64,000 nt of DNA from Escherichia coli (GTDB lineage: Bacteria > Pseudomonadota > Gammaproteobacteria > Enterobacterales > Enterobacteriaceae): NCBI RefSeq assembly GCF_024223415.1, contig NZ_CP100500.1, one strand, 5' to 3'. Positions 8,129 to 40,496 of the stretch are shown in pieces; the first letter of the stretch is position 1, and every line of letters begins with the position of its first letter. The notes under the pieces are model-generated. The model ran no database searches. It was not told where the DNA came from and was given only the letters and a program-made list of their open reading frames with translations. The position numbers and the translations under genes are program-made.

Positions 8129-9160
8129 ATGTCTGCATTTACCCCGGCAAGTGAAGTCTTGCTGCGTCACAGTGATGATTTCGAACAAAGCCGTATTCTG
8201 TTTGCCGGAGACTTACAGGATGACCTGCCCGCGCGTTTAGATACCGCGGCCAGCCGTGCTCATACCCAGCAATTCCACCACTGGCAGGTATTAAGCCGCC
8301 AGATGGGGGATAACGCCCGTTTCAGTCTGGTCGCCACGGCGGATGACGTCGCAGATTGCGATACGCTGATTTACTACTGGCCGAAGAACAAACCGGAAGC
8401 CCAGTTCCAGTTGATGAATTTACTTTCTCTGCTGCCAGTGGGGACAGATATTTTTGTCGTTGGCGAGAACCGCAGCGGCGTGCGCAGCGCCGAGCAGATG
8501 CTGGCAGATTATGCGCCGTTGAATAAAGTCGACAGCGCTCGTCGCTGTGGCCTCTATTTTGGTCGTCTGGAAAAACAGCCGGTATTTGATGCGGAGAAAT
8601 TCTGGGGCGAATACAGCGTCGATGGCCTGACGGTCAAAACGCTGCCTGGCGTGTTTAGCCGCGACGGTCTGGATGTCGGTAGCCAGTTGCTGCTCTCGAC
8701 GTTAACTCCGCACACGAAAGGTAAAGTGCTGGATGTCGGCTGTGGCGCGGGCGTGCTTTCAGTTGCCTTTGCGCGCCATTCGCCGAAAATTCGTCTCACC
8801 TTGTGCGATGTCTCTGCCCCGGCGGTAGAAGCCAGCCGCGCAACACTTGCGGCCAACGGTGTTGAAGGTGAAGTCTTTGCCAGCAACGTCTTTTCCGAGG
8901 TGAAAGGTCGTTTTGATATGATCATCTCCAACCCGCCGTTCCACGATGGGATGCAAACCAGCCTGGATGCGGCGCAAACGCTGATTCGCGGTGCGGTGCG
9001 TCATCTTAATAGCGGCGGCGAGCTGCGAATTGTAGCGAACGCCTTCCTGCCTTATCCGGACGTGCTGGATGAGACATTTGGCTTCCACGAAGTGATCGCG
9101 CAAACAGGGCGCTTCAAGGTGTATCGCGCCATTATGACCCGCCAGGCGAAGAAAGGTTAA
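8129..9160 (+). CDS. rsmC: 16S rRNA m2G1207 methyltransferase
   Basis: 343-aa ORF with SAM-binding [11 protein letters not shown] and NPPFH motifs. Confidence 0.9.
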
Positions 9161-9170
9161 TTATCTCGCC

Positions 9171-9340
<170 letters not shown>

Positions 9341-9391
9341 TCTCCTGATGAACATTTTTCCAGCAATTACATCTCCGGCGATAATTAACTA

Positions 9392-9419
9392 TTGACGAAA
9401 AGCTGAAAACCACTAGAAT
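9392..9419 (+). promoter_or_regulatory. Sigma70 promoter of the leuQPV tRNA operon
   Basis: TTGACG, 16-bp spacer, TAGAAT, followed by GC-rich discriminator gcgcctcc about 40 bp before the first tRNA. Confidence 0.6.
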
Positions 9420-9460
9420 GCGCCTCCGTGGTAGCAATTCTTTTTAAGAATTGATGGTAT

Positions 9461-9547
9461 GCGAAGGTGGCGGAATTGGTAGACGCGCTAGCTTCAGGTG
9501 TTAGTGTCCTTACGGACGTGGGGGTTCAAGTCCCCCCCCTCGCACCA
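9461..9547 (+). tRNA. leuQ: tRNA-Leu(CAG), copy 1
   Basis: 87 nt GCGAAGGTGGCGGAATTGGTAGACGCG...; anticodon loop CTTCAGGTG; T-arm GGGGGTTCAAGTCCCCC; encoded CCA. Confidence 0.95.
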
Positions 9548-9575
9548 AAAACCACGTTGATATTGCTCGCACTGG

Positions 9576-9662
9576 GCGAAGGTGGCGGAATTGGTAGACG
9601 CGCTAGCTTCAGGTGTTAGTGTTCTTACGGACGTGGGGGTTCAAGTCCCCCCCCTCGCACCA
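9576..9662 (+). tRNA. leuP: tRNA-Leu(CAG), copy 2
   Basis: Same 87-nt sequence with one substitution (gttcttacgg instead of gtccttacgg in the variable arm). Confidence 0.95.
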
Positions 9663-9696
9663 AACGAGGCGATATCAAAAAAAGTAAGATGACTGT

Positions 9697-9782
9697 GCGA
9701 AGGTGGCGGAATTGGTAGACGCGCTAGCTTCAGGTGTTAGTGTCCTTACGGACGTGGGGGTTCAAGTCCCCCCCTCGCACCA
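9697..9782 (+). tRNA. leuV: tRNA-Leu(CAG), copy 3
   Basis: Same sequence, but the C-run before the 3' acceptor strand has 7 C instead of 8 (86 nt). Confidence 0.9.
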
Positions 9783-9820
9783 ATTATCTTTACTTCCTTT
9801 CTTGTTGCTTCCCTGTTTTA

Positions 9821-10057
9821 TCATCCCTGCCTCAAATTCATTATCATCAGCATGATGCCAGCAATAAGCGCCAGGCACGATGGTAGCAAAATGTAATGCC
9901 GTAACTGTTTGTGATACAGCATCACCGGCGTCAATATCAATCCCATCAGAATGACAATCCGCCACTGATCCGGCGATAAATCCGCATACATCAGCCCTGC
10001 AATCAGCAATCCCGGCAGCAACACTCCCCAGCCACTGCCCAGCGTACGTTGCAACAT
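9821..10057 (-). CDS. yjjZ: Small inner-membrane protein YjjZ (78 aa)
   Basis: Hydrophobic ORF MLQRTLGSGWGVLLPGLLIAG...; start at the internal Met of the 115-aa track ORF; Fur boxes immediately upstream. Confidence 0.7.
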   Translation of the reverse strand: MLQRTLGSGWGVLLPGLLIAGLMYADLSPDQWRIVILMGLILTPVMLYHKQLRHYILLPSCLALIAGIMLMIMNLRQG

Positions 10058-10075
10058 GGTTTCATCTCTTTCATT

Positions 10076-10115
10076 GATAATGATAACCAATATCATATGA
10101 TAATTTTTATCATTT
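10076..10115. promoter_or_regulatory. Fur boxes in the yjjZ/fhuF divergent region
   Basis: gataatgataaccaatatcatatgataatttttatcattt contains overlapping GATAAT/ATCATT hexamers of the Fur consensus. Confidence 0.6.
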
Positions 10116-10164
10116 GCAAGCCAGAGAAATCCCTTGCTATCGGGTAAACCTATCGCTAGGATTA

Positions 10165-10180
10165 GCAATCATTATCATTT
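10165..10180. promoter_or_regulatory. Fur box proximal to fhuF
   Basis: gcaatcattatcattt matches the ATAATCATTATC core of the Fur consensus, about 20 bp before the fhuF ATG. Confidence 0.55.
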
Positions 10181-10197
10181 AGATTACTATCCCGATT

Positions 10198-10986
10198 ATG
10201 GCCTATCGTTCCGCACCGCTCTATGAAGATATCATCTGGCGAACGCATCTCCAGCCACAGGATGCTAGGCTTGCACAAGCCGTACGTGCGACGATCGCCG
10301 AACATCGTGAACATTTGCTGGAGTTTATCCGCCTGGATGAACCCGCTCCGCTTAACGCCATGACGCTGGCGCAATGGTCATCACCGAATGCGCTAAGTTC
10401 TCTACTCGCGGTCTATTCCGATCATATCTATCGCAACCAACCAACGATGATCCGCGAGAACAAACCGCTGATCTCACTATGGGCACAATGGTATATCGGC
10501 CTGATGGTGCCACCATTAATGCTGGCGCTACTGACGCAGGAAAAAGCATTAGATGTGTCGCCGGAACATTTCCATGCTGAGTTTCACGAAACCGGACGCG
10601 TCGCCTGTTTCTGGGTCGATGTGTGTGAAGATAAAAACGCAACACCACATTCGCCGCAGCAGCGAATGGAAACGTTAATCAGCCAGGCGCTGGTTCCGGT
10701 TGTGCAGACACTAGAAGCGACCGGAGAGATCAACGGCAAACTTATCTGGAGTAATACCGGTTATTTGATCAACTGGTATCTTACTGAGATGAAGCAACTG
10801 CTCGGCGAGGCGACGGTTGAATCGCTGCGCCATGCCCTCTTTTTTGAGAAAACGCTTACTACCGGTGAAGATAATCCACTCTGGCGTACCGTGGTGCTAC
10901 GCGACGGCCTGCTGGTGCGCCGCACTTGCTGCCAGCGTTATCGCTTACCGGATGTGCAGCAATGTGGCGATTGTACGCTGAAATGA
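10198..10986 (+). CDS. fhuF: Ferric-siderophore reductase FhuF (2Fe-2S)
   Basis: 262-aa ORF with C-terminal C-C-x10-C-x2-C cluster (CCQRYRLPDVQQCGDC). Confidence 0.9.
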   Translation: MAYRSAPLYEDIIWRTHLQPQDARLAQAVRATIAEHREHLLEFIRLDEPAPLNAMTLAQWSSPNALSSLLAVYSDHIYRNQPTMIRENKPLISLWAQWYIGLMVPPLMLALLTQEKALDVSPEHFHAEFHETGRVACFWVDVCEDKNATPHSPQQRMETLISQALVPVVQTLEATGEINGKLIWSNTGYLINWYLTEMKQLLGEATVESLRHALFFEKTLTTGEDNPLWRTVVLRDGLLVRRTCCQRYRLPDVQQCGDCTLK

Positions 10987-28645: not shown

Positions 28646-28678
28646 TTTTGGATGATGGCCGCCATGTGGCGGCCTGAA

Positions 28679-28981
28679 TTATTTTTTGTTCTGATCGCGC
28701 AGCATCGCTTCACGTAAAATTGCGTTCAGGCGAGTTTGATAGCCTTTACCAGGTCGCTTCAGCCATTCCATCACATCAGCATCAATACGCACCGAAGCCT
28801 GGGTTTTCAATGGCCGATAAAACTTACCGCGTTCTGCGTTAGACCATTGCTCATCGCTGGAAGGCGGGATATCACTGTAATCAATATCTTCGTCGAATTT
28901 ATTCGCCAGTGCCTTCAGTTCGGCCTCATGCTGCACATCGAGTGTAGAGGGTGTCCCTCGTTTATGTTTAACCATGCTCAT
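28679..28981 (-). CDS. brnA: BrnA-like antitoxin (DUF4415/COG3514)
   Basis: C-terminal VRIDADVMEWLKRPGKGYQTRLNAILREAM is the hallmark BrnA motif; start at internal ATG (MSMVKHKRG) overlapping the brnT 3' end by 14 nt. Confidence 0.7.
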   Translation of the reverse strand: MSMVKHKRGTPSTLDVQHEAELKALANKFDEDIDYSDIPPSSDEQWSNAERGKFYRPLKTQASVRIDADVMEWLKRPGKGYQTRLNAILREAMLRDQNKK

Positions 28982-29255
28982 AGCGACTCCTCTCTTTACG
29001 ATCTGCTTTTCGTGCACTGATGATTCGAATAATTTCATTTCCGCTTTCGAAACGGATGGTATGCGCAACCAGAATAACCACGATACCGTGAACCAGGCCG
29101 ATAGTCTGCCAGCGATACTCACCGTTTTCTATGCGATCTTGCTGTGACAAATGTTGTGGATCATCAAACACTAACACCGCATCTTCAAAGCGGATGCCAT
29201 GTTTCACCCGATTACTTTTGGCCTTGTTTGCATCCCATTCAAACTCCATTGGCAT
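28968..29255 (-). CDS. brnT: BrnT-like toxin (DUF497/COG2929, RelE-fold ribonuclease)
   Basis: N-terminus ...MEFEWDANKAKSNRVKHGIRFEDAVLVFDD is the typical BrnT signature; toxin gene lies upstream of the antitoxin as in brnTA operons; start ambiguous among three nearby ATG (29249/29255/29264). Confidence 0.7.
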   Translation of the reverse strand: MPMEFEWDANKAKSNRVKHGIRFEDAVLVFDDPQHLSQQDRIENGEYRWQTIGLVHGIVVILVAHTIRFESGNEIIRIISARKADRKERSRYEHG

Positions 29256-29451
29256 AGTTGCCATCCCTAATTGTATATACAAAAATGTATCTACAATTAT
29301 TCTGCAATTATAGCGTTGATGTTGGAAATAGCATCACGTTTTGGATAATCAACCATGAAATTGACAATGAGTAAGTTGGACTTGATTCATCCAATAGAAT
29401 TTCTCGCCTGACATGGCACACTAAACACCTCGCTGTCGTTAAGGGATTACC

Positions 29452-30618
29452 GTGAAAAACTATAAAGTTATTACCCCGCTTTTTCCTACCTATGCACAGG
29501 TTAAAGCTATGATGAAAGCCGTCTCAGGCTATTCCCTGAAAGCGGTACGCAATATGATTACCGCCATTCGCGATCAAACCGGTACGCCGCAAAAACCCGT
29601 TGACTGGTCGGAACCTGACCTGTGGATCAGCGAACGCTTAACGGGCGAAGATGCCGACATCGCCCGTCGTATTTGGGATACAGATAATCACATATTGAAC
29701 CCGCGCCACAGCTACGGCTGCTACTTATTCCTCAACTATCCCCAGTTTGAGCTGATGGAAAGCACGCCAGATGATACCTGGCAGCCCACCTCGCGCGGGC
29801 AAAAATTCCTGCAAGATGACGAAAAAACGCTGCGTTCACTGGATGACCAGGAAGGCATTCTGCAACTGCTTGAGCTGCTGGCTGGCCGGGAAATGTCGCG
29901 CCGCGCCGATTTATTGCCGGAATGGCAGGCCTTTTTGCATCAGCATTCGAAATTCGCGTCTGCAAGTTCAGTGAAAAGCACGCTCTACTCCCGTCTCTAT
30001 AACCTTATTGACCGTGGCATGGTTACTCGCGAAGGTATGAGCTATTGCATCACCGATACCGGACGCGCCTGGCTTGGAAAAGCGTTGCCAGCACGAAAAA
30101 GCGATCCGCGTAAAGAGCTGTTGGAAGCGGTGAAACGCTACAACGAGCAGCAAAAAGAGCTGCTGCGCGAACAAATCAGCACGATGAACCCGTACAAATT
30201 TGAACAACTGGTCGGTCAATTACTGGAAGCAATGGGCTACGAGCAGGTCGAAGTGACCAAAGCCTCAGGCGATAAAGGTGTGGACGTGATTGGTCAGGTG
30301 CAGGTCGGCATCACCACTATTACCGAAGTGGTGCAGGTCAAAAGAATGCAGAACACCATCACTCGACCGTATATCGACCAGTTGCGCGGAGCGTTGCCTT
30401 ACCACAAAGCCATTCGCGGTACGCTCATCACCACCGGGAAATTTGCGGCGAAATGTGCAGAAGCGGCGCTCTTTCCGGGGGCAGCGCCCATTACGCTTAT
30501 CGACGGCGATCGCTTACTGGAACTGTTAATCGAAAATAACGTCGGCATTCGCCGCAGCAATGCAGTGGAATTGCTGGATGTAGATTTGCAGTTGTTTGAT
30601 GAGCTGGAGATGGATTAA
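29452..30618 (+). CDS. Mrr-family (type IV-like) restriction endonuclease with extended N-terminal region
   Basis: C-terminal Mrr_cat-like core (GDKGVDVIG...TEVVQVKR, D...QxK variant); GTG start preceded by aaggga; ends 63 bp before hsdM on the same strand. Confidence 0.75.
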   Translation: MKNYKVITPLFPTYAQVKAMMKAVSGYSLKAVRNMITAIRDQTGTPQKPVDWSEPDLWISERLTGEDADIARRIWDTDNHILNPRHSYGCYLFLNYPQFELMESTPDDTWQPTSRGQKFLQDDEKTLRSLDDQEGILQLLELLAGREMSRRADLLPEWQAFLHQHSKFASASSVKSTLYSRLYNLIDRGMVTREGMSYCITDTGRAWLGKALPARKSDPRKELLEAVKRYNEQQKELLREQISTMNPYKFEQLVGQLLEAMGYEQVEVTKASGDKGVDVIGQVQVGITTITEVVQVKRMQNTITRPYIDQLRGALPYHKAIRGTLITTGKFAAKCAEAALFPGAAPITLIDGDRLLELLIENNVGIRRSNAVELLDVDLQLFDELEMD

Positions 30619-30681
30619 AGGGCGAAATCTGCCGTCTCTACCATTACAATAGCGACCCAATTTATCTGAACAGAGTTCATC

Positions 30682-32301
30682 ATGGCCAAAGCACCAACTA
30701 AAAAAGCCAAAGCAAAGAAAGGCTTTGAAGAAACATTATGGGATACTGCAAACCAACTTCGCGGTAGCGTTGAGTCCTCCGAATACAAGCACGTGGTGTT
30801 AAGCCTCGTGTTCCTGAAATTCATCAGCGATAAGTTTGAAGCACGCCGCAAAAAAATGATTGCCGATGGGCAAGCTGACTTCCTTGAGATGGAAGTGTTC
30901 TACCAGCAGGACAACATTTTCTACCTGCCGGAAGAGGCGCGCTGGTCATTTATCAAACAAAATGCCAAACAGGACGATATTGCGGTTCGTATTGACACCG
31001 CCCTCTCGACCATTGAGAAACGTAACCCAACCCTGAAAGGCGCGCTGCCAGACAACTACTTCAGCCGTCAGAATCTGGAAACCAAAAAACTGGCGTCACT
31101 GATTGATACCATCGACAACGTCGAAACGCTGGCACACGAAACTGACGTTGAAACGTTGTCGAAAGAAGACCTGGTCGGACGCGTTTACGAATACTTCCTC
31201 GGTAAGTTTGCCGCAACCGAAGGCAAAGGCGGTGGTGAGTTCTACACGCCCAAATGTGTGGTTACGCTGTTAACTGAAATGCTCGAACCTTTCCAGGGCA
31301 AAATCTATGACCCATGCTGCGGCTCGGCGGGGATGTTCGTGCAGTCGGTGAAGTTTGTCGAGAGCCATCAGGGTAAAAGTCGTGATATCGCGCTGTATGG
31401 TCAGGAACTGACAGCCACGACGTATAAACTGGCAAAAATGAACCTCGCCATTCGCGGCCTTTCAGCAAACCTCGGCGAACGCCCGGCAGACACTTTCTTT
31501 AGCGACCAGCACCCGGACCTGAAAGCCGACTACATTCTGGCGAACCCGCCGTTCAACCTGAAAGACTGGCGTAATGAAGCCGAATTAACCAAAGATCCAC
31601 GTTTTGCTGGTTATCGTATGCCGCCAACCGGTAACGCCAACTACGGCTGGATTTTGCATATGCTCTCCAAGCTGTCGGCTAACGGCACAGCAGGTTTTGT
31701 GCTGGCAAACGGTTCGATGAGTTCTAACACCAGCGGTGAAGGCGAGATCCGTGCGCAGATGATCGAAAATGATCTGATCGACTGCATGATCGCCCTACCT
31801 GGTCAGTTGTTTTACACCACGCAGATCCCGGTGTGTTTATGGTTTATGACCAAATCGAAGGCTGCCGACCCGGCCAAAGGTTATCGTGATCGTCAGGGCG
31901 AGACGCTGTTTATTGATGCGCGTAACCTCGGCACCATGATTAGCCGCACAACTAAAGAGTTAACGGCGGAAGATATTGCCACCATCGCCGATACCTACCA
32001 TGCATGGCGCAGTACGCCGGAAGAACTGGCTGCACGGATTGCGCGTGGTGACAGCAAGCTGGAAAAATATGAAGACCAGGCAGGCTTCAGCAAAGTTGCG
32101 ACCCTGCAAGATATTAAAGATAACGACTACGTGCTGACGCCGGGCCGCTATGTGGGTGCAGCCGAGCAGGAAGAGGACGGCGTGGCATTTGAGACAAAAA
32201 TGCGGGAGTTGTCGAAGACGTTGTTTGAGCAGATGAAGCAGGCGGAAGAACTGGATTGTGCGATTCGCCAGAATCTGGAGGCGCTGGGTTATGGGGAGTA
32301 A
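30682..32301 (+). CDS. hsdM: Type I R-M N6-adenine DNA methyltransferase subunit
   Basis: 539-aa ORF with SAM-binding motif I (DPCCGSAGMF) and catalytic NPPF (ILANPPFNL); N-terminus unlike EcoKI HsdM. Confidence 0.9.
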   Translation: MAKAPTKKAKAKKGFEETLWDTANQLRGSVESSEYKHVVLSLVFLKFISDKFEARRKKMIADGQADFLEMEVFYQQDNIFYLPEEARWSFIKQNAKQDDIAVRIDTALSTIEKRNPTLKGALPDNYFSRQNLETKKLASLIDTIDNVETLAHETDVETLSKEDLVGRVYEYFLGKFAATEGKGGGEFYTPKCVVTLLTEMLEPFQGKIYDPCCGSAGMFVQSVKFVESHQGKSRDIALYGQELTATTYKLAKMNLAIRGLSANLGERPADTFFSDQHPDLKADYILANPPFNLKDWRNEAELTKDPRFAGYRMPPTGNANYGWILHMLSKLSANGTAGFVLANGSMSSNTSGEGEIRAQMIENDLIDCMIALPGQLFYTTQIPVCLWFMTKSKAADPAKGYRDRQGETLFIDARNLGTMISRTTKELTAEDIATIADTYHAWRSTPEELAARIARGDSKLEKYEDQAGFSKVATLQDIKDNDYVLTPGRYVGAAEQEEDGVAFETKMRELSKTLFEQMKQAEELDCAIRQNLEALGYGE

Positions 32302-33604
32302 TGCTATTACAACAATAATTGGTGAACACTTGCTGATTAGAAATGGCAAATCTTCGCCATCAAGAGCCATAACAGGAGAATATCCTGTTTATGGTTCAAA
32401 TGGAATAATAGGTTATTCAGATGAATATAACGCTAATGAAAATACAATAATTATCGGGCGTGTTGGGTCATATTGTGGTTCAGTTTATATTTCCGATAAA
32501 AAATGTTGGGTCACTGATAATGCAATAATTGGAACCGCAAAGAATGAAAATGAAAGTCATTTTTGGTTCTATCTTTTAAAAAAAATAGATTTGAACAATT
32601 ATAGTACTGGTTCAGGCCAACCTCTCATTAACCAAACAATAATTAATACAATATCCGTTACCATTCCTAAGCTCAGTGAGAAAAGAGTAGCCATTGGACA
32701 TTTTTTACGCCACTTTGATCAAAAGATAAATTTATCTCTTAATATCAATCAATCCTTGGAACAAATGTCCCAAACCTTGTTCAAATCCTGGTTTGTGGAT
32801 TTCGATCCGGTGATTGATAACGCGCTGGACGCGGGAAACCCAATCCCGGAAGCGATGCAATCTCGCGCAGAACTGCGTCAAAAAGTACGTAATAGTGCAG
32901 ATTTTAAACCGCTTCTAGCGGAAATCCGCTCGCTTTTCCCAAGTGAATTTGAAGAAACCGAACCAGGATGGTTACCTAAGGGCTGGAAACATGGTAATTT
33001 AAATGATGTCACGAAGATCTTAAGTGGGTTTGCTTTTAAGAGTAAAGACTTTGGTGATGAAGGTAAAAGTGTCATAAAAATAAAGAACATTAATATCGAT
33101 AAAACAATTGATATAGATCATACTCAAAAAATTTCTGATATCGTAGCCAAAGACGTAAAGCGTTTTCAATTATTTGATGCCGATATTTTGATGGCTATGA
33201 CTGGTGCCACGGTCGGTAAATTTGGAATATTAGCATCAAAAAATCATGAAGAATATTATCTTAACCAACGAGTTGCGAAGTTTGAAACAGATAAAAAAGC
33301 TTACCTTTATTGTATATTGAATCAAGAAAGTACCGAAAGATTTATAATCAATACAGCTCAGGGCAGTGCACAACCAAATATCAGTGCTAAAGATATTTTA
33401 AGTATTCCACTCACACTACCATCAAACGAAATAATAACTATATTCAATACATTTGTTGATCCTTTATTCTACAGAATGATAGCGAATACAAAAGTTAGTT
33501 TAAGTCTAACAGAACTCCGCGACACCTTGCTCCCAAAACTCATCTCCGGCGAGCTCTCCCTGGAAGATCTTCCGGATCTCAGCACCAATACAGAAGCCGC
33601 ATAA
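32291..33604 (+). CDS. hsdS: Type I R-M specificity subunit
   Basis: Two AT-rich variable target-recognition regions separated by a conserved central region (SLEQMSQTLFKSWFVDFDP) plus conserved C-terminal helix (LTELRDTLLPKLISGEL); ATG at 32291 overlaps the hsdM 3' end. Confidence 0.85.
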   Translation: MGSNAITTIIGEHLLIRNGKSSPSRAITGEYPVYGSNGIIGYSDEYNANENTIIIGRVGSYCGSVYISDKKCWVTDNAIIGTAKNENESHFWFYLLKKIDLNNYSTGSGQPLINQTIINTISVTIPKLSEKRVAIGHFLRHFDQKINLSLNINQSLEQMSQTLFKSWFVDFDPVIDNALDAGNPIPEAMQSRAELRQKVRNSADFKPLLAEIRSLFPSEFEETEPGWLPKGWKHGNLNDVTKILSGFAFKSKDFGDEGKSVIKIKNINIDKTIDIDHTQKISDIVAKDVKRFQLFDADILMAMTGATVGKFGILASKNHEEYYLNQRVAKFETDKKAYLYCILNQESTERFIINTAQGSAQPNISAKDILSIPLTLPSNEIITIFNTFVDPLFYRMIANTKVSLSLTELRDTLLPKLISGELSLEDLPDLSTNTEAA

Positions 33605-33612
33605 CGCATTTT

Positions 33613-33637
33613 GCCCCTGTAAAATCAGGGGCTTTCT
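33613..33637 (+). terminator. Hairpin with T-run between hsdS and hsdR (possible attenuator)
   Basis: gcccctg-taaaat-caggggc followed by tttct, 9 bp after the hsdS stop and about 60 bp before the hsdR ATG. Confidence 0.45.
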
Positions 33638-33698
33638 GGTAAGGTTTTCTACTGATACGGGAATGCTTACCAGAAATTAGCCAGGGTTGGAGCGCGAT

Positions 33699-36600
33699 AT
33701 GAGTCTCTCTTTCAGTGAAGCAAAATTAGAACAAGCGATCATTGAACTGCTGCAGGATCAGGGATATCAACACCTGATCGGCGATAATGTCCCACGTTCA
33801 AGTCTCGATCAGGTCATCATCGAAGACGATCTCCGTCATTATTTAGCGGCACGCTACCAGCCTGATGGCATTACTGAAGAAGAGATTCAACGGCTGATCA
33901 AACAGTTCACCACGCTTCCGGCCTCCGACCTTTATGAAAGCAACAAAACATTTTGTCGCTGGCTGGCAAATGGTTTTCTGTTCAAACGCGACGATCGGCA
34001 ACAAAAAGATCTCTATATTGAATTGCTCGACACCCGGCATCTACCCGCCGCACTGCGCCAGATATTTGACACCGACGATGTCCCGTTGCAACAGGCGGCG
34101 GAACTCCCGCCTTCCTATATTAATCCGCCGCTTAACCGGATTAAGATTGTTAACCAGCTTAAAATCTCCGGTAAAGATAATCAGACTCGTATTCCTGACG
34201 GCATTCTCTATATCAACGGTCTGCCACTGGTCGTCTTTGAATTTAAAAGTGCGGTGCGCGAGCAAGAAGCCAGTATTGGCGATGCCTGGAAGCAGCTCTG
34301 TAAACGCTATCGCCGGGATATTCCGCAACTGTTTATCTACAACGCGCTCTGCGTTATCAGCGATGGCGTAAATAACCGGATGGGCAACCTGTTTGCGCCC
34401 TATGAATACTTTTACTCATGGCGCAAAGTCACCGGTAATGAAAACCGTGAACAGGACGGAATTCCATCATTGCACTCAATGATTCAGGGGCTGTTTCATC
34501 CGGTACGTCTGCTGGACGTGATTAAAAACTTTATCTGCTTCCCGGATAAAGCCAAGCACGAAGTAAAAATTTGCTGCCGATATCCGCAGTACTATGCCGC
34601 CCGCAAACTCTATTACAGCATCAAGCAAGCGCGTAAACCTTTCGGTAGCGGTAAAGGCGGCACCTACTTTGGCGCAACGGGCTGTGGCAAAAGTTACACC
34701 ATGCAATTTTTAACGCGTCTTTTGATGAAGAGCGTGGAGTTTGCCAGCCCGACCATTGTTTTGATCACCGACCGCACCGATCTGGACGATCAGCTTTCTG
34801 CGCAAATGTGCAACGCCAAAAATTACATTGGCGACGACACCATCGTTCCTGTTACCAGCCGTGAAGATTTGCGTAATCAACTGGCGGGACGCAATAGTGG
34901 CGGTGTATTCCTGACAACGATCCATAAATTCACCGAAGACACCGAACTCCTTTCTGAACGCAGCAATATCATTTGCATCTCGGACGAAGCACATCGCAGC
35001 CAGGTTAACCTCGACCAGAAAGTCATCGTCGATAAAGAAAGCGGAAAAGTGCGCAAAACTTATGGCTTTGCGAAATACCTGCACGATTCACTGCCAAACG
35101 CCACCTATGTTGGCTTTACCGGCACACCGATTGACGCGACGCTCGATGTCTTCGGTGAGGTGATCGACAGTTACACCATGACCGAATCCGTTCAGGATGA
35201 AATCACTGTACGCATCGTGTACGAAGGCCGTGCGGCTAAAGTGATCCTGGACTCCAGTAAACTGGAAGAAGTTGAAAAGTATTACGAAGAGTGCGCAAAC
35301 GCAGGCACCAATGAGTGGCAAATCGACGAAAGCAAAAAAGCCACCGCAACCATGAATGCGGTACTGGGTGATGAAGATCGGTTAAAAGCCCTCGCGGAAG
35401 ATTTTGCCAAACATTATGAAAAACGCGTAGACGAAGGTTCCACCGTAAAAGGCAAAGCCATGTTTGTTTGTGCCAGCCGTGAAATTGCCTGGGATTTCTA
35501 CCGTCAGCTTAAAGCTATTCGCCCTGCCTGGTTTGAAGTGAAGCAAGCACCCGATGGCGTCGTCCTGACGGAACAGGAGCAGAAAGAGTTACCGCCTTCA
35601 GAAATGGTGAAGATGGTCATGACGCGCGGTAAAGATGACGACGAGGCGCTTTATGATTTACTGGGCACAAAAGAATATCGTAAAGAGCTGGATAAACAGT
35701 TTAAAAACGCTAAATCGAATTTCAAAATTGCCATTGTTGTTGATATGTGGCTGACCGGTTTCGACGTCCCGGAACTGGATACCATCTATATTGATAAACC
35801 CTTACAAAAACATAATCTTATCCAGACCATTTCTCGCGTTAACCGTAAACTGGAAGGCAAAAGTAAAGGGTTAGTGGTGGACTACATCGGCATTAAAAGT
35901 CAGATGAACCAGGCACTGGCAATGTATTCCCGCATTGATGCCACCAACTTTGAAGATATTCAGCAATCGGTAATAGAAGTTAAAAACCATCTCGATTTGT
36001 TGGGGCAAGTCTTTTACGAATTTGACAGTCGGGATTATTTTAGTGGTGAGCCACAAGCGCAATTATCCTGCCTCAACCGCGCGGCGGAATTTGTTCTGCG
36101 TACCCAGAAAGTTGAACGTCGTTTTATGGGACTGGTTAAACGCATGAAAGCCGCCTACGACGTCTGCTGCGGCAGCGAAGCATTATCACAGACAGAACGT
36201 GACTATATTCACTATTATCTTGCTGTTCGTTCAATTGTTTTCAAACTGACGAAAGGTGACGCACCGGATGTCACCCAGATGAATGCACGCGTTCGTGAAA
36301 TGATTGCAGAAGCGTTAAAAGCTGATGGCGTAGAAGAGATTTATTTTCTTGGCGATAAAAAAGCGGAATCCATCGATATTTTTGACGAAGATTATCTGGC
36401 ACGAATTAACAAGATCAAACTTCCGGCAACGAAGATCCAGTTATTACAAAAATTACTGGAAAAAGCGATCAGCGACTTCAAGAAAGTGAACCAGTTGCAA
36501 GGGATTAACTTCACCCGCCGCTTCCAGGCAATTATAGATCGTTATAATGAGCGGCGAGAAGATGATGTACTCAACGGTGAAGAATTCGATACATTCAGTC

Positions 36601-36962
36601 AGGAAATGACCGATATTATCTATGATATTAAAACCGAAATGGGCACCTGGGCCGATTTAGGCATTGATATTGAAGAAAAAGCGTTTTTCGACATTCTTGC
36701 TCATATGCGCGATAAATATCAGTTCACCTATGACGATGAAAAAATGCTGTCACTGGCAAAAGAGATGAAAAGCGTGGTTGACAACACATCGAAATATCCT
36801 GACTGGAGTAAACGTGATGATATTAAAGCGAAACTGAAAGTTGAACTTATTCTGCTTCTACACAAGCATAAGTTCCCGCCAGTAGCGAATGATGATGTTT
36901 ATATGGGTGTGCTGGCACAGGCAGAGAATTTTAAAGAACACCATATGAGTGCTTTAAATTAA
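33699..36962 (+). CDS. hsdR: Type I R-M restriction subunit (nuclease/helicase)
   Basis: N-terminal PD-(D/E)xK (…LPLVVFEFKS), Walker A (GATGCGKS), DEAH box (ISDEAHRSQ); ATG 33699 preceded by ggag. Confidence 0.9.
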   Translation: MSLSFSEAKLEQAIIELLQDQGYQHLIGDNVPRSSLDQVIIEDDLRHYLAARYQPDGITEEEIQRLIKQFTTLPASDLYESNKTFCRWLANGFLFKRDDRQQKDLYIELLDTRHLPAALRQIFDTDDVPLQQAAELPPSYINPPLNRIKIVNQLKISGKDNQTRIPDGILYINGLPLVVFEFKSAVREQEASIGDAWKQLCKRYRRDIPQLFIYNALCVISDGVNNRMGNLFAPYEYFYSWRKVTGNENREQDGIPSLHSMIQGLFHPVRLLDVIKNFICFPDKAKHEVKICCRYPQYYAARKLYYSIKQARKPFGSGKGGTYFGATGCGKSYTMQFLTRLLMKSVEFASPTIVLITDRTDLDDQLSAQMCNAKNYIGDDTIVPVTSREDLRNQLAGRNSGGVFLTTIHKFTEDTELLSERSNIICISDEAHRSQVNLDQKVIVDKESGKVRKTYGFAKYLHDSLPNATYVGFTGTPIDATLDVFGEVIDSYTMTESVQDEITVRIVYEGRAAKVILDSSKLEEVEKYYEECANAGTNEWQIDESKKATATMNAVLGDEDRLKALAEDFAKHYEKRVDEGSTVKGKAMFVCASREIAWDFYRQLKAIRPAWFEVKQAPDGVVLTEQEQKELPPSEMVKMVMTRGKDDDEALYDLLGTKEYRKELDKQFKNAKSNFKIAIVVDMWLTGFDVPELDTIYIDKPLQKHNLIQTISRVNRKLEGKSKGLVVDYIGIKSQMNQALAMYSRIDATNFEDIQQSVIEVKNHLDLLGQVFYEFDSRDYFSGEPQAQLSCLNRAAEFVLRTQKVERRFMGLVKRMKAAYDVCCGSEALSQTERDYIHYYLAVRSIVFKLTKGDAPDVTQMNARVREMIAEALKADGVEEIYFLGDKKAESIDIFDEDYLARINKIKLPATKIQLLQKLLEKAISDFKKVNQLQGINFTRRFQAIIDRYNERREDDVLNGEEFDTFSQEMTDIIYDIKTEMGTWADLGIDIEEKAFFDILAHMRDKYQFTYDDEKMLSLAKEMKSVVDNTSKYPDWSKRDDIKAKLKVELILLLHKHKFPPVANDDVYMGVLAQAENFKEHHMSALN

Positions 36963-36969
36963 TTATGAA

Positions 36970-37000
36970 GGCCGGATACACTTTGTTATCCGGCCATTCT
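36970..37000 (+). terminator. Hairpin after hsdR
   Basis: ggccggata-cactttgt-tatccggcc followed by attct; weak T-tract. Confidence 0.45.
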
Positions 37001-37082
37001 GAATTAACGTTAATTTCTCTTCCAGATCTTTCCAGTAACGCTTTTATTATTTTCTATTTTTAGCTGGACTATCCCTGTATTT

Positions 37083-37098
37083 ACTGATGATATATCCA
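37083..37098. promoter_or_regulatory. LexA (SOS) box upstream of symE
   Basis: CTGATGATATATCCAG fits CTG-N10-CAG with an AT-rich centre, about 80 bp upstream of the symE ATG. Confidence 0.6.
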
Positions 37099-37104
37099 GG
37101 TATT

Positions 37105-37183
37105 TAGCGCGGTGCGGATGTGCGCCAACACACCCGCACCGCTCATCACAATCACTATTTTCAAGGAATAGCAGTTATGACTG
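37105..37183 (-). ncRNA. symR: SymR antisense sRNA (approximate coordinates)
   Basis: Placed by analogy with the K-12 symE/SymR type I TA arrangement, where a ~77-nt antisense RNA overlaps the symE RBS and start codon; boundaries not determined from sequence. Confidence 0.35.
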
Positions 37184-37515
37184 ACACGCATTCTATTGCA
37201 CAACCGTTCGAAGCAGAAGTCTCCCCGGCAAATAACCGCCAATTAACCGTGAGTTATGCGAGTCGCTACCCGGATTACAGCCGTATTCCCGCCATCACTC
37301 TGAAAGGTCAGTGGCTGGAAGCCGCCGGTTTTGCTACCGGCACGGCGGTAGATGTCAAAGTGATGGACGGCTGTATTGTCCTCACCGCCCAACCACCCGC
37401 CGCCGAAGAGAGCGAACTGATGCAGTCGCTACGCCAGGTGTGCAAACTGTCGGCACGTAAACAAAAGCAGGTGCAGGAGTTTATTGGGGTGATTAGTAGC
37501 AAAACGCCACGCTAA
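37177..37515 (+). CDS. symE: SOS-induced toxin SymE (AbrB-fold)
   Basis: [55 protein letters not shown]...; start at internal ATG 37177 with RBS aagga. Confidence 0.85.
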
Positions 37516-37557
37516 GTTTCTCTCCCCTTCCCCATACGTGAAGGGGAATTGCCCCCA

Positions 37558-37722
37558 TCACTCCACATCCTCCTTGCGTAACCCAATATCCCTCAACCGT
37601 TCATCACTCATTTGCTGTAACACTCGTCGGGTCTGCATTTGTCGCCGCCAACGCCTCACCGCCTGCCAGAGTTGCACAAGTCTGATAAACGGCGTTTTGG
37701 CTTTGTTTTCGTGAAATTCCAT
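37558..37722 (-). CDS. yjiS: DUF1127 small protein YjiS (54 aa)
   Basis: Hand translation of the minus strand: MEFHENKAKTPFIRLVQLWQAVRRWRRQMQTRRVLQQMSDERLRDIGLRKEDVE with RBS gaggagg; below the 60-aa cutoff so absent from the ORF track. Confidence 0.8.
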   Translation of the reverse strand: MEFHENKAKTPFIRLVQLWQAVRRWRRQMQTRRVLQQMSDERLRDIGLRKEDVE

Positions 37723-37898
37723 CTGCTGCCTCCTCATCTTTCAGAGGCTTCATCATCCGCCTTCTGGCAGTTCACAATACAGATGCAAATATTAGTTTTA
37801 TTTAACATACAGACAGGTTAAAACAGCATCTGCATCCGGTTTTTTAGCCTCATCTGTACCGGTTTTTCTCTCTGTATGGTCTAAATAAGGAATACAGC

Positions 37899-39311
37899 AT
37901 GACGCGTTATCAACATCTGGCAACTCTGCTTGCCGAGCGGATTGAGCAAGGGCTGTATCGTCACGGGGAGAAATTGCCGTCGGTGCGCAGCTTAAGTCAG
38001 GAGCACGGCGTCAGCATCAGCACCGTGCAGCAGGCGTATCAGACGCTGGAGACGATGAAGCTCATCACTCCGCAGCCGCGTTCGGGGTATTTTGTCGCAC
38101 AACGTAAAGCCCAGCCGCCAGTGCCGCCGATGACGCGTCCGGTGCAGCGCCCGGTGGAAATTACCCAGTGGGATCAGGTACTGGATATGCTGGAGGCGCA
38201 TAGCGACAGTTCCATTGTTCCGTTAAGCAAAAGCACGCCGGATGTCGAAACGCCCAGCCTGAAACCACTCTGGCGGGAGCTAAGCCGGGTGGTACAGCAT
38301 AATCTGCAAACCGTTCTCGGTTATGACTTGCTAGCCGGTCAGCGGGTATTGCGCGAGCAGGTTGCCCGCCTGATGCTCGACAGCGGCTCGGTGGTCACCG
38401 CCGATGACATCATTATCACCAGCGGCTGCCATAACTCGATGTCGCTGGCGTTAATGGCGGTGTGTAAACCGGGCGATATTGTCGCGGTCGAATCCCCCTG
38501 TTATTACGGTTCGATGCAGATGCTGCGCGGCATGGGTGTGAAAGTGATTGAAATCCCAACCGATCCAGAAACTGGCATCAGCGTTGAAGCGCTGGAACTG
38601 GCGCTGGAACAGTGGCCGATTAAAGGCATCATTCTGGTGCCAAACTGTAATAATCCGCTGGGATTTATTATGCCGGACGCGCGCAAACGGGCCGTTCTCT
38701 CTCTCGCTCAGCGTCATGATATTGTGATTTTTGAAGATGATGTCTACGGCGAACTGGCAACGGAGTATCCGCGCCCGCGGACCATTCATTCCTGGGATAT
38801 CGACGGGCGAGTGCTGTTGTGCAGCTCGTTCAGTAAAAGTATTGCTCCAGGCCTGCGGGTGGGTTGGGTCGCACCGGGGCGCTATCACGATAAACTGCTG
38901 CATATGAAATACGCCATCAGCAGCTTTAATGTACCGTCCACGCAAATGGCGGCGGCAACGTTTGTGCTGGAAGGTCACTATCATCGCCATATCCGGCGGA
39001 TGCGGCAGATCTATCAGCGCAATTTGGCGCTTTATACCTGCTGGATACGGGAATATTTTCCCTGCGAAATCTGTATTACGCGCCCGAAAGGCGGATTTTT
39101 ACTGTGGATCGAATTGCCTGAACAGGTCGATATGGTCTGCGTCGCGCGGCAGCTATACCGCATGAAAATCCAGGTGGCGGCAGGCTCGATTTTCTCGGCT
39201 TCCGGCAAATACCGTAATTGTCTACGTATCAACTGCGCTTTGCCGCTCAACGAAACCTATCGCGAAGCACTGAAGCAAATTGGCGAGGCCGTGTATCGGG
39301 CAATGGAATAA
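37899..39311 (+). CDS. yjiR: MocR-family regulator (GntR HTH fused to aminotransferase-like domain)
   Basis: 470-aa ORF with N-terminal GntR wHTH (LPSVRSLSQEHGVSISTVQQAY) and PLP-fold domain (SFSKSIAPGLRVG). Confidence 0.85.
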   Translation: MTRYQHLATLLAERIEQGLYRHGEKLPSVRSLSQEHGVSISTVQQAYQTLETMKLITPQPRSGYFVAQRKAQPPVPPMTRPVQRPVEITQWDQVLDMLEAHSDSSIVPLSKSTPDVETPSLKPLWRELSRVVQHNLQTVLGYDLLAGQRVLREQVARLMLDSGSVVTADDIIITSGCHNSMSLALMAVCKPGDIVAVESPCYYGSMQMLRGMGVKVIEIPTDPETGISVEALELALEQWPIKGIILVPNCNNPLGFIMPDARKRAVLSLAQRHDIVIFEDDVYGELATEYPRPRTIHSWDIDGRVLLCSSFSKSIAPGLRVGWVAPGRYHDKLLHMKYAISSFNVPSTQMAAATFVLEGHYHRHIRRMRQIYQRNLALYTCWIREYFPCEICITRPKGGFLLWIELPEQVDMVCVARQLYRMKIQVAAGSIFSASGKYRNCLRINCALPLNETYREALKQIGEAVYRAME

Positions 39312-39427
39312 ATTCGAATTAGTGGCGAAGCACCTGATTTATTCTCACGAATCGCCTGTGACTCGTTTTATCTTTGCAGGATCATAGCCACGTTCCGGCA
39401 TGGCTTAGTAAAGTGCGCTTCGTTCAT

Positions 39428-39530
39428 GCCGGATGCGGCGTGAACGCCTTATCCGGCTTACAAATCGCGCAAATTCAATAGATTGCAGAGGTAATGTAGG
39501 TCTGATAAGCGTAGCACATCAGGCAGCTTT
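39428..39530. repeat. REP pair between yjiR and rpnD
   Basis: gccggatgcggcgtgaacgccttatccggcttac plus an inverted degenerate copy gtaggtctgataagcgtagcacatcaggcagc. Confidence 0.8.
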
Positions 39531-39551
39531 GCGTTTGTCATCAGTCTCTGA

Positions 39552-40496
39552 TTAGTACTCGATCCATGGATCGCGCTTGCTTTCAGGCAAGGGTTGCTCT
39601 AATGCCTGCATTTGCTCTGCCGAAAGTCCAGTATATCGTTGTATCCATTCAGGATCCGCACCGTTCTGCAAAAGCAATCTAAGGAGGCGTTGTTCCCCTT
39701 CTTCTTTCCCCTTTTCCATCCCTAACAGCCATCCATCATTATGAATTCGCTCTGCAATCGTCATTATTCGCTCCCTGTGTTGTGGCATTCGACTGGTTAG
39801 TTCGCTGATAAACTCTTTAAAACTCGCTTCATCGCCAGCCAGTAAAATGTAATTTAACAGCGCGGTTATCTGGCTGTCATTAGCGCACCCTGTAACCAGT
39901 AATACTGCCAGTTGATCAATAAGCCCCATTAGATCGCGCTGGCGAATATGCTTTTGGATCAACTCCAACAGGGCGACTCTGCGGTGCTGCACAATCTCGT
40001 CGTCTGGCACGACAGTGATATCCACCAGCGGGAACGCGGCATTATAAAGTTTCCGTGCGGTAGTCGGGTCGGCAAATTCGTCCAGCCAGCACAGGGACCA
40101 GGGGTAAGGACTACGGCTACCGTGATAAAACAGCATCGGGATGACCAGCGGTAGCTGCCGGCGTTTATCATGCTCGATATGGCGCTGCATCACCGCCATG
40201 GAATAGCGCATCAGGCGAAAGGCCATATGAATATCCTCACGGCTCTGATGTTCAATCACCACATAAATATAGCCATCGCCTTCGCGGGTCTTTACCGACC
40301 ACAGAATATCGGAATGTAGCGCCCGCAATTTTTCATCGACAAAGCTGGCGGATTCCAGTTTTAAGCTGTCGAGATCGCACAGTTCCCGTAAATCTTTAGG
40401 TAAGTGGATCTCCATAAAATCCCGCGCGGTGTCAGGGTGCATGAGAAAGGATTTAAATAATGCGTCATGCGGCGTGCTGGTCGTGAAGTTTGTCAT
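39552..40496 (-). CDS. rpnD: Rpn-family recombination-promoting nuclease (YhgA-like)
   Basis: 314-aa ORF with N-terminal HDALFKSF... and VVIEHQS PD-(D/E)xK-like core typical of Rpn/YhgA; intact reading frame. Confidence 0.75.

What the first reader, a model, noticed from the sequence alone, without database searches (positions are those of the whole stretch)
37558..37722. DUF1127 gene yjiS is present but hidden below the ORF-track size cutoff
Hand translation of the minus strand gives a 54-aa protein with the DUF1127 signature and a strong RBS (gaggagg). The only ORF the track lists here (37639-37821, plus strand) is probably spurious. yjiS marks the right-hand boundary of the variable defence locus.
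Basis: seen in the sequence. Interest (0 to 1): 0.3.

Follow-up and report, generated by a model that had tools for sequence, protein, structure and literature searches.

The report
Known small gene yjiS, correctly spotted

Summary
Confirmed and ordinary. Minus strand 37558-37722 encodes a 54-aa protein. A GAGGAGG ribosome-binding site lies 6 nt before the ATG. The protein matches Pfam DUF1127 (E 2.2e-12, 46.9 bits against a cutoff of 23.3). It is 49/54 identical to K-12 YjiS (b4341), and RefSeq annotates it as yjiS at the same place in near-identical genomes.

The longest ORF in this frame is 59 aa, just under the 60-aa default. The 60-aa plus-strand ORF (37639-37821) has no family match. It is broken in related alleles, and its substitution pattern does not look like coding sequence.

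Homology to K-12 ends 6 nt past the yjiS stop. In a 60-genome sample, 40 genomes lose homology on the symE side of yjiS; 39 of them break 0-15 nt past the stop and one breaks 59 nt past it. The literature already defines the Immigration Control Region as lying between yjiS and yjiA.

One caveat: yjiS is not universal. It is full-length in 3736 of 5426 complete E. coli genomes, a decayed 3' relic in about 423, and absent in 1267. Some of the absences are IS1-linked deletions.

Published work on K-12 YjiS indicates that it binds the sensor kinase PhoR and dampens phosphate-uptake genes.

Side observation: the yjiS-yjiR spacer carries clustered CTGTAT repeats conserved across genera, a possible YjiR operator.

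The parts
37558..37722 (-). yjiS coding sequence: 54 codons plus a TGA stop. It encodes a small arginine-rich DUF1127 protein (10 Arg, pI 11.1).
   Evidence: Translation. Pfam PF06568 at E 2.2e-12. RefSeq yjiS at the same place in SCU-316 and others. 49/54 identical to K-12 YjiS. Third-codon-position excess across genera. Composition.
37729..37735 (-). Shine-Dalgarno sequence GAGGAGG, 6 nt upstream of the start codon.
   Evidence: Read directly from the sequence. Conserved as GAGGAGG/GGGGAGG in K-12, Citrobacter and Klebsiella.
37735..37737 (-). Upstream in-frame ATG that gives the 59-aa mechanical ORF. It is not the real start.
   Evidence: K-12 has a TAG between this ATG and the annotated ATG (ATGAGGAGGTAGCAGATG). 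Protein conservation begins exactly at MEFHEN in all 20 aligned homologues.
37723..37898 (.). Divergent yjiS-yjiR promoter spacer, 176 bp. It carries four CTGTAT/ATACAG hexamers (starting at 37777, 37807, 37872, 37892) and other blocks that are invariant across genera.
   Evidence: Alignments. 4 hexamers observed against 0.08 expected from the window-wide frequency. The same 176-177-nt spacing occurs in Citrobacter and Klebsiella. RNA polymerase sigma-70 SELEX binding with predicted divergent promoters in the K-12 spacer (PMC3946193).
37795..37821 (-). Predicted yjiS promoter: TTAACC (37816-37821), 15-nt spacer, TAAAAC (37795-37800).
   Evidence: Inferred by mapping the K-12 hexamers TTAACC-15-TAAAAG listed in PMC3946193 onto the window sequence. 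The simple consensus scan did not call it. No transcription start site was mapped here.
37899..39311 (+). yjiR, a MocR-type regulator (GntR wHTH domain plus an aminotransferase-like domain), divergent partner of yjiS.
   Evidence: ORF. Pfam GntR and Aminotran_1_2. RefSeq annotation. The pairing is conserved in Citrobacter and Klebsiella.
37639..37821 (+). 60-aa antisense ORF listed by the ORF track; judged spurious.
   Evidence: No Pfam match. Frameshifted in L008/L009 and carrying a stop in a Citrobacter allele; variable sites 19/12/11 by its codon positions.
37543..37558 (.). Zone where homology to other E. coli genomes ends, i.e. the junction between the conserved yjiS-yjiR core and the variable cassette.
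   Evidence: K-12 homology covers 37552-44482 (alignment). In the 60-genome spread, 39 query_from values of 294-309 correspond to 37543-37558; one further genome breaks at 37499.
28646..37551 (.). Variable restriction/defence segment (Immigration Control Region) of this strain. It holds brnA/brnT, an Mrr-cat restriction endonuclease, hsdM, hsdS, hsdR, and symE with SymR.
   Evidence: K-12 homology stops at 28645 (yjiA) and resumes at 37552. Pfam assignments. SymR Rfam hit at 37106-37182, 91.7 bits. Same arrangement in SCU-316 and ST131 EC958.
37177..37515 (+). symE, convergent with yjiS; 42 bp separate the two stop codons.
   Evidence: Pfam SymE_toxin. RefSeq annotation. This symE-yjiS junction type is found in about 918 genomes.

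Best explanation
This is the E. coli gene yjiS (K-12 b4341). It is a real, translated small gene for a 54-aa, arginine-rich, DUF1127-domain protein. It is transcribed divergently from the MocR-type regulator gene yjiR, and its stop codon abuts the variable Immigration Control Region (type I R-M, Mrr-like enzyme, brnTA, symE in this strain).

Shown here: the ORF, its RBS, family membership, orthology and synteny, purifying selection in this frame, and the position of the homology breakpoint.

Inferred from published experiments on the K-12 protein (49/54 identical): YjiS acts through protein-protein contact. It binds the inner-membrane sensor kinase PhoR and dampens the Pho regulon (pstS expression and phosphate uptake). 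This parallels the membrane association and sensor-kinase (SsrA) contact of Salmonella YjiS.

Its role as a boundary is passive. It is the last conserved core gene before the cassette, and recombination in the conserved flanks swaps what lies beyond it.

The confidence of 0.9 is for identity and boundary. I put the PhoR-modulator mechanism applying to this allele at about 0.55.
For: Sequence and RBS. Pfam DUF1127 at 46.9 bits against a cutoff of 23.3. RefSeq yjiS annotation at the same position. K-12 comparison. MEFHEN...QQMSDERLRDIGLRR is invariant or nearly so in 20 enterobacterial homologues. The yjiR-yjiS pair with an identical spacer length occurs in Citrobacter and Klebsiella. Third-position substitution excess of 22/16/41. 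Breakpoints 0-15 nt beyond the stop in 39 of 40 sampled genomes that break on that side. The ICR is defined between yjiS and yjiA in PMC3874165, PMC2481252 and PMC3874153. An E. coli yjiS mutant shows raised pstS and faster phosphate uptake, and YjiS-PhoR interaction was seen by two-hybrid and Far-Western assays (PMC12501420). Salmonella YjiS localises to the inner membrane and pulls down SsrA (PMC11707872).
Against: Nothing argues against the identification. Several points weaken the mechanism. The PhoR interaction was seen in only one two-hybrid orientation. Another DUF1127 protein, CcaF1, binds RNA (PMC8034643). yjiS is dispensable in nature: it is intact in only about 69% of complete E. 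coli genomes. Within E. coli, residues 7-31 vary a good deal. This window's allele has Lys at position 50, where 18 of the 19 aligned homologues have Arg. The AlphaFold model was low-confidence (pLDDT 68.6), so no structural support was obtained.
Confidence: 0.9

Rival explanations
1. YjiS here works mainly as a small RNA-binding protein, like the DUF1127 protein CcaF1 of Rhodobacter, using its arginine-rich SAM/Smaug-like segment to alter RNA processing or stability rather than binding a sensor kinase.
For: CcaF1 binds RNA and affects sRNA maturation (PMC8034643). The protein is very basic, with 10 Arg and pI 11.1. The best, non-significant, PDB sequence hit is a SAM domain (tankyrase-2, E 0.74), which echoes the SAM/Smaug resemblance reported for CcaF1.
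Against: Pull-downs of Salmonella YjiS gave no evidence of RNA association (PMC11707872). E. coli YjiS bound PhoR directly and complemented the Agrobacterium phosphate phenotype (PMC12501420). Enterobacterial YjiS is only about 20% identical to CcaF1. The PDB hit is not significant.
Confidence: 0.15
2. The copy in this strain is on its way to decay. It would be a dispensable, weakly constrained remnant next to a recombination hotspot, not a functioning gene.
For: yjiS is absent from 1267 and truncated in about 423 of 5426 complete genomes. Decayed relics occur in CFT073, UTI89 and ST69. One allele has a premature stop next to a yjiR pseudogene. This window's allele has a private R50K change.
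Against: Here the ORF, start codon, RBS, spacer motifs and the partner gene yjiR (470 aa) are all intact. R50K is conservative. The near-identical gene in SCU-316 and EC958 is also intact. The C-terminal domain is nearly invariant across genera.
Confidence: 0.05
3. The plus-strand 60-aa ORF 37639-37821 is the real gene, or a second overlapping gene, and yjiS is the by-product.
For: It is open in 6 of the 8 E. coli alleles compared, and it passes the ORF-track length cutoff.
Against: It has no family match and starts with TTG. It is frameshifted in L008/L009 and has an in-frame stop in a Citrobacter allele. Its most variable codon position is the first (19/12/11). Its C-terminal half is the conserved promoter spacer. 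RefSeq never annotates it.
Confidence: 0.01

Closest known systems
Escherichia coli K-12 YjiS (b4341, NP_418761.1), DUF1127 domain-containing protein
   Same: Same length (54 aa), same start context and RBS, and 49/54 identical residues. Same divergent partner yjiR with a 176-nt spacer. Same role as the last core gene before the Immigration Control Region.
   Different: Five substitutions (K7R, T10A, R14G, R44K, K50R, written window to K-12). In K-12 the gene beyond the stop codon is yjiT, followed by yjiV and mcrBC. Here symE converges on yjiS directly, 42 bp from stop to stop.
Salmonella Typhimurium YjiS (PMC11707872)
   Same: A 54-aa enterobacterial DUF1127 protein with the same architecture: an N-terminal helix-forming segment and a C-terminal arginine-rich DUF1127 domain with the DIGL motif. 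The authors place it in the same enteric clade.
   Different: The Salmonella phenotypes (delayed macrophage escape, SsrA/B link, flagella) depend on SPI-2 machinery that E. coli lacks. I did not fetch the Salmonella sequence, so identity to this allele was not measured.
Agrobacterium SDP1-3 and Rhodobacter CcaF1 (small DUF1127 proteins; PMC12501420, PMC8034643)
   Same: Same Pfam domain. E. coli YjiS complements the Agrobacterium triple mutant's pstS phenotype.
   Different: Only about 20-24% sequence similarity is reported. CcaF1 is an RNA binder co-transcribed with sRNAs. Alphaproteobacteria carry several paralogues, whereas E. coli has one.
Immigration Control Region (ICR) of E. coli (Sibley and Raleigh 2004, as cited in PMC2481252, PMC3874165, PMC3874153)
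   Same: A variable restriction-gene cassette between yjiA and yjiS. Here that is window 28646-37551, with a type I R-M system, an Mrr-cat enzyme, brnTA and symE.
   Different: The cassette content differs from K-12: no mcrBC or yjiTV, and a different hsd family. It matches the arrangement in ST131 EC958 and SCU-316.

Membership tests
Pfam PF06568 (DUF1127 / YjiS-like) | Match to the family HMM above the curated gathering score | tested here: met
   46.9 bits against a cutoff of 23.3, E 2.2e-12, residues 18-54 on model positions 1-37 of 37.
Pfam PF06568 (DUF1127 / YjiS-like) | Arginine-rich segment followed by the conserved D-I/V-G-L motif near the C-terminus of a small protein | tested here: met
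   RRWRRQMQTRR at residues 23-33 and DIGL at 45-48. D45, G47, L48 and R49 are invariant in 20 homologues. The protein is 54 aa with 10 Arg.
Orthologue of E. coli K-12 yjiS (b4341) | Sequence identity and conserved position: divergent from yjiR, on the yjiA-proximal side | tested here: met
   92% nucleotide and 49/54 amino-acid identity. Collinear K-12 homology covers window 37552-44482, from yjiS to yjiM. RefSeq names it yjiS in thousands of genomes.
Orthologue of E. coli K-12 yjiS (b4341) | The gene is expressed and translated | not testable with these tools
   There is only indirect support: an RBS 6 nt from the ATG, coding-type substitution pattern, sigma-70 RNA polymerase binding in the K-12 spacer (PMC3946193), and Ribo-seq and western evidence for the Salmonella orthologue (PMC11707872).
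PhoR-binding DUF1127 modulators (PMC12501420) | [quoted passage not shown] | not testable with these tools
   Shown for K-12 YjiS in the paper. Transferred to this allele by 91% identity only.
Immigration Control Region boundary gene | A variable segment carrying restriction genes lies between yjiA and yjiS, and homology between strains ends at the gene's 3' end | tested here: met
   K-12 homology ends at 28645 and resumes at 37552. Of the 40 sampled genomes that break on this side, 39 have breakpoints at 37543-37558 and one at 37499. R-M content confirmed. Exceptions exist where deletions remove yjiS.

The most novel reading that the evidence does not exclude
The conserved yjiR-yjiS divergent pair is a regulatory module. 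In this reading the MocR-type regulator YjiR, which should sense an unknown amino or PLP-reactive ligand, controls yjiS (and itself) through the cross-genus conserved CTGTAT/ATACAG repeats in the 176-bp spacer. An unidentified metabolite signal would then be coupled, via YjiS, to sensor-kinase (PhoR) output. The evidence here is only motif clustering, conservation and synteny. I found no paper describing a YjiR operator, and no experiment was possible.
Probability: 0.35. Interest if true: 0.35.

Novelty: already known. Interest (0 to 1): 0.1.

Why it matters
For the scan, this shows that a 60-aa ORF cutoff hides a real, conserved, experimentally studied small gene while letting a spurious antisense ORF through. 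That is a useful calibration point but not a discovery.

Biologically, yjiS is the fixed anchor on one side of the classic E. coli restriction-gene cassette. Its product is one of the few small proteins with evidence for tuning a sensor kinase.

The only mildly new points concern its distribution and its promoter region. About 31% of complete E. coli genomes lack an intact copy, which tempers claims of a conserved core function. The yjiS-yjiR spacer also carries a strongly conserved repeat array that may be the YjiR operator.

Tried and rejected
- NCBIfam scan of YjiS: no family at E up to 1. The RefSeq name therefore rests on the Pfam domain.
- PDB sequence search: nothing significant. The best hits were Spire (E 0.28) and a tankyrase-2 SAM domain (E 0.74). 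No DUF1127 structure was found by sequence.
- AlphaFold2 on a 20-sequence enterobacterial alignment gave one long helix with mean pLDDT 68.6 and pTM 0.33. That is too weak to justify a fold search, so none was run.
- The promoter and terminator consensus scan found nothing at yjiS.
- The hairpin between the symE and yjiS stops (about 37522-37548) folds at -18.8 kcal/mol on the minus strand and -13.4 on the plus strand. The z-scores are only -1.5 and -1.8, and there is no T-run, so I do not claim it as a terminator.
- Rfam sub-threshold C/D-box snoRNA hits at 37720-37761 (16-21 bits against cutoffs of 45-54) are chance matches.
- The codon-position test using E. coli alleles alone was inconclusive (8/8/13), because some lineages carry decaying copies. 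The cross-genus test was decisive.
- I considered the 59-aa form starting at ATG 37737. I rejected it because K-12 has a TAG in that extension and conservation starts at MEFHEN.
- The first guess at UTI89 coordinates missed the locus; the second found it.

Full report
**What is in the sequence.**
- Read on the minus strand, window 37558-37722 is an uninterrupted 54-codon frame. It encodes MEFHENKAKTPFIRLVQLWQAVRRWRRQMQTRRVLQQMSDERLRDIGLRKEDVE and ends in TGA.
- GAGGAGG lies at 37729-37735, six nucleotides before the ATG at 37722.
- The mechanical ORF in this frame starts at an upstream ATG (37737) and is 59 aa, one residue short of the 60-aa default of the ORF list. The antisense plus-strand ORF 37639-37821 is exactly 60 aa and is therefore listed.

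**Is it more than chance?**
- Short ORFs are abundant here: 17 of at least 20 aa overlap this 700-bp stretch. The ORF alone proves nothing.
- The protein matches Pfam PF06568 (DUF1127) over the whole model, at E 2.2e-12 and 46.9 bits against a gathering score of 23.3. The antisense ORF matches nothing.
- The 701 bp around the gene match 4219 of 5426 complete E. coli genomes. RefSeq annotates the same interval as "yjiS: DUF1127 domain-containing protein", flanked by symE and yjiR.
- The window is 99.76% collinear over 40.7 kb with strain SCU-316, where yjiS is annotated at the corresponding coordinates.
- K-12 YjiS (b4341) differs at five residues.

**Start codon.**
- In K-12 the stretch between the upstream ATG and the annotated ATG contains a TAG (ATGAGGAGGTAGCAGATG).
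- In 20 aligned enterobacterial homologues the first six residues, MEFHEN, are invariant.
- The 54-aa form is therefore the real one.

**Which strand is coding?**
- With E. coli alleles alone the codon-position test was weak: variable columns fell 8/8/13. Some lineages carry decaying copies, including one allele with a GAA-to-TAA stop at codon 5 next to a yjiR pseudogene.
- I then fetched orthologues from Citrobacter and Klebsiella. Across the five sequences, variable sites fall 22/16/41 on codon positions 1/2/3 of the yjiS frame. My chi-square on these counts is about 12.9, p about 0.002.
- In the frame of the plus-strand ORF they fall 19/12/11, so its first position is the most variable. That is what an antisense non-coding frame would show.
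- The plus-strand ORF also carries an in-frame stop in one Citrobacter allele. A 1-bp insertion frameshifts it in two E. coli alleles while leaving yjiS in frame.
- Its second half lies in the conserved promoter spacer. I conclude that it is spurious.

**Boundary claim.**
- BLAST of the window against K-12 shows homology up to 28645 (the end of yjiA). There is then a shared symE/SymR island at 37052-37494, and collinear homology again from 37552 to 44482, covering yjiS to yjiM.
- The alignment shows identity through the stop codon and about six more bases, then unrelated AT-rich DNA in K-12.
- I also looked at a 60-genome sample spread evenly over 4223 matching genomes.
  - 13 keep the symE-yjiS junction as it is here.
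  - 39 lose homology at window 37543-37558, which is 0-15 nt past the stop; one more breaks at 37499.
- The segment 28646-37551 in this strain holds brnA/brnT, an Mrr-cat restriction endonuclease, hsdM, hsdS, hsdR and symE (Pfam), plus SymR (Rfam, 91.7 bits). ST131 EC958 has the same arrangement.
- The literature already defines the Immigration Control Region as the variable restriction locus between yjiS and yjiA (PMC3874165, PMC2481252, PMC3874153).

**A qualification I did not find stated in the papers I read.**
- By blastn, yjiS is full-length in 3736 of 5426 complete genomes, partial in about 423, and undetectable in 1267.
- The partial class includes CFT073, UTI89 and an ST69 strain. They carry a 5'-truncated, decayed relic annotated as a 26-aa hypothetical protein (MQTRCVLQQVRDERLKDIGLCREDVV). 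In these genomes yjiR and mdtM are missing and the relic abuts rpnD.
- The absent class includes genomes in which yjiA-brnAT is followed by an IS1 and then mdtM. Another IS1 deletion removes the region from brnT through yjiS.
- So yjiS is the usual right edge of the cassette, but not the universal one. E. coli's sole DUF1127 gene is dispensable in nature.

**What the protein does.**
- Nothing can be tested here beyond sequence.
- The protein is very basic (10 Arg, pI 11.1), has no hydrophobic span, and is moderately amphipathic between residues 7 and 32.
- PDB has no significant sequence relative. The weak SAM-domain hit (E 0.74) only echoes the SAM/Smaug resemblance proposed for CcaF1 (PMC8034643).
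- The AlphaFold model was a single low-confidence helix (pLDDT 68.6), so I did not run fold searches.
- Published experiments give the best guide.
  - An E. coli yjiS mutant over-expresses pstS and takes up phosphate faster.
  - YjiS binds PhoR in two-hybrid assays (one orientation only) and in Far-Western assays.
  - E. coli YjiS complements the Agrobacterium DUF1127 triple mutant (PMC12501420).
  - Salmonella YjiS is associated with the inner membrane, pulls down the sensor kinase SsrA, and showed no RNA association (PMC11707872).
- I therefore favour a small modulator of sensor kinases acting by protein contact (about 0.55) over a CcaF1-like RNA binder (about 0.15).

**Surroundings.**
- yjiS and yjiR (GntR wHTH plus an aminotransferase-like domain) form a divergent pair with a 176-177-nt spacer in E. 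coli, Citrobacter and Klebsiella.
- What lies beyond the yjiS stop differs between them. In Citrobacter and Klebsiella it is a MarR-efflux operon, not restriction genes.
- The spacer contains blocks that are invariant across genera. CTGTAT/ATACAG occurs four times in 183 bp, against 0.08 expected from its frequency in the window.
- Within E. coli the spacer varies less than the coding sequence: 16 of 179 variable columns against 29 of 162.
- A genomic SELEX study lists sigma-70 RNA polymerase binding and divergent predicted promoters in the K-12 spacer (PMC3946193). The repeats overlap those hexamers.
- This looks like an operator array for YjiR, but that is inference only. I found no paper describing one.

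**Verdict.** The observation and the interpretation are both correct. The feature is a known, annotated gene at a known landmark. Interest is low. The value lies in calibrating the ORF cutoff and in the side notes on gene loss and the spacer repeats.

Noticed in passing
window 37723-37898 (hexamers start at 37777, 37807, 37872, 37892): The yjiS-yjiR divergent spacer carries four CTGTAT/ATACAG hexamers, against 0.08 expected. Three of them are TCTGTAT, out of only 9 in the whole 64-kb window. They sit in blocks that are invariant from E. coli to Klebsiella and overlap the predicted divergent promoters. This is a candidate operator for the MocR-type regulator YjiR.
   Followed up: partly
L007 22501-22581 (CFT073); also L020 13206-13286 (UTI89), L005 16507-16587 (ST69), L003 14999-15079: In these lineages yjiS survives only as a 5'-truncated, mutated 26-codon relic annotated as a hypothetical protein. 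yjiR and mdtM are deleted, and the relic lies next to the recombination-promoting nuclease gene rpnD and a GmrSD/DUF262 restriction module.
   Followed up: partly
L021 3180-6182 (strain D9); L006 8028-10566 (strain ET82): These are IS1-associated deletions. In D9 and many other genomes, yjiA-brnAT is followed by IS1 and then mdtM, so the R-M genes, symE, yjiS, yjiR and rpnD are all gone. In ET82, IS1 replaces the region from brnT through yjiS. About 23% of complete E. coli genomes have no detectable yjiS.
   Followed up: partly
window 37574-37576 (codon 50 of yjiS): This allele has AAG (Lys) where 18 of the 19 aligned homologues, and the closest genome SCU-316, have Arg (GLRR). No complete E. 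coli genome in the collection carries an identical yjiS; the best match is 99.4%.
   Followed up: partly
window 37106-37182 (-) and 37177-37515 (+): The SymR antitoxin sRNA (Rfam RF01809, 91.7 bits) overlaps the 5' end of symE. symE is convergent with yjiS with only 42 bp between the stops. That gap holds a G+C-rich hairpin (about 37522-37548) without a T-run and with an unremarkable z-score.
   Followed up: partly
L012, L016 (Citrobacter) and L015 (Klebsiella), positions 8314-10922: In Citrobacter and Klebsiella the DNA beyond the yjiS stop is a MarR / membrane-fusion protein / DUF2955 operon rather than restriction genes. In Citrobacter it lies between yjiS and yjiA. The yjiS 3' end is therefore an old junction whose neighbour differs by genus.
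   Followed up: no
window 39552-40496 (-): An intact rpnD-type Rpn (Transposase_31/YhgA-like) recombination-promoting nuclease gene lies just beyond yjiR. It is a pseudogene in K-12. A paper in the library links this gene (yjiP) to RecA-independent replacement events (PMC4498929; abstract only seen).
   Followed up: no
L004 12001-12165 (MINF_1D); P0068, P0080: A divergent yjiS allele group replaces the arginine run RRWRRQMQ with RTWWLKKQ or RSWWLKKQ while keeping the C-terminal QQMSDERLRDIGLRREDVE intact. The arginine-rich stretch is therefore less constrained than the DIGL end.
   Followed up: no
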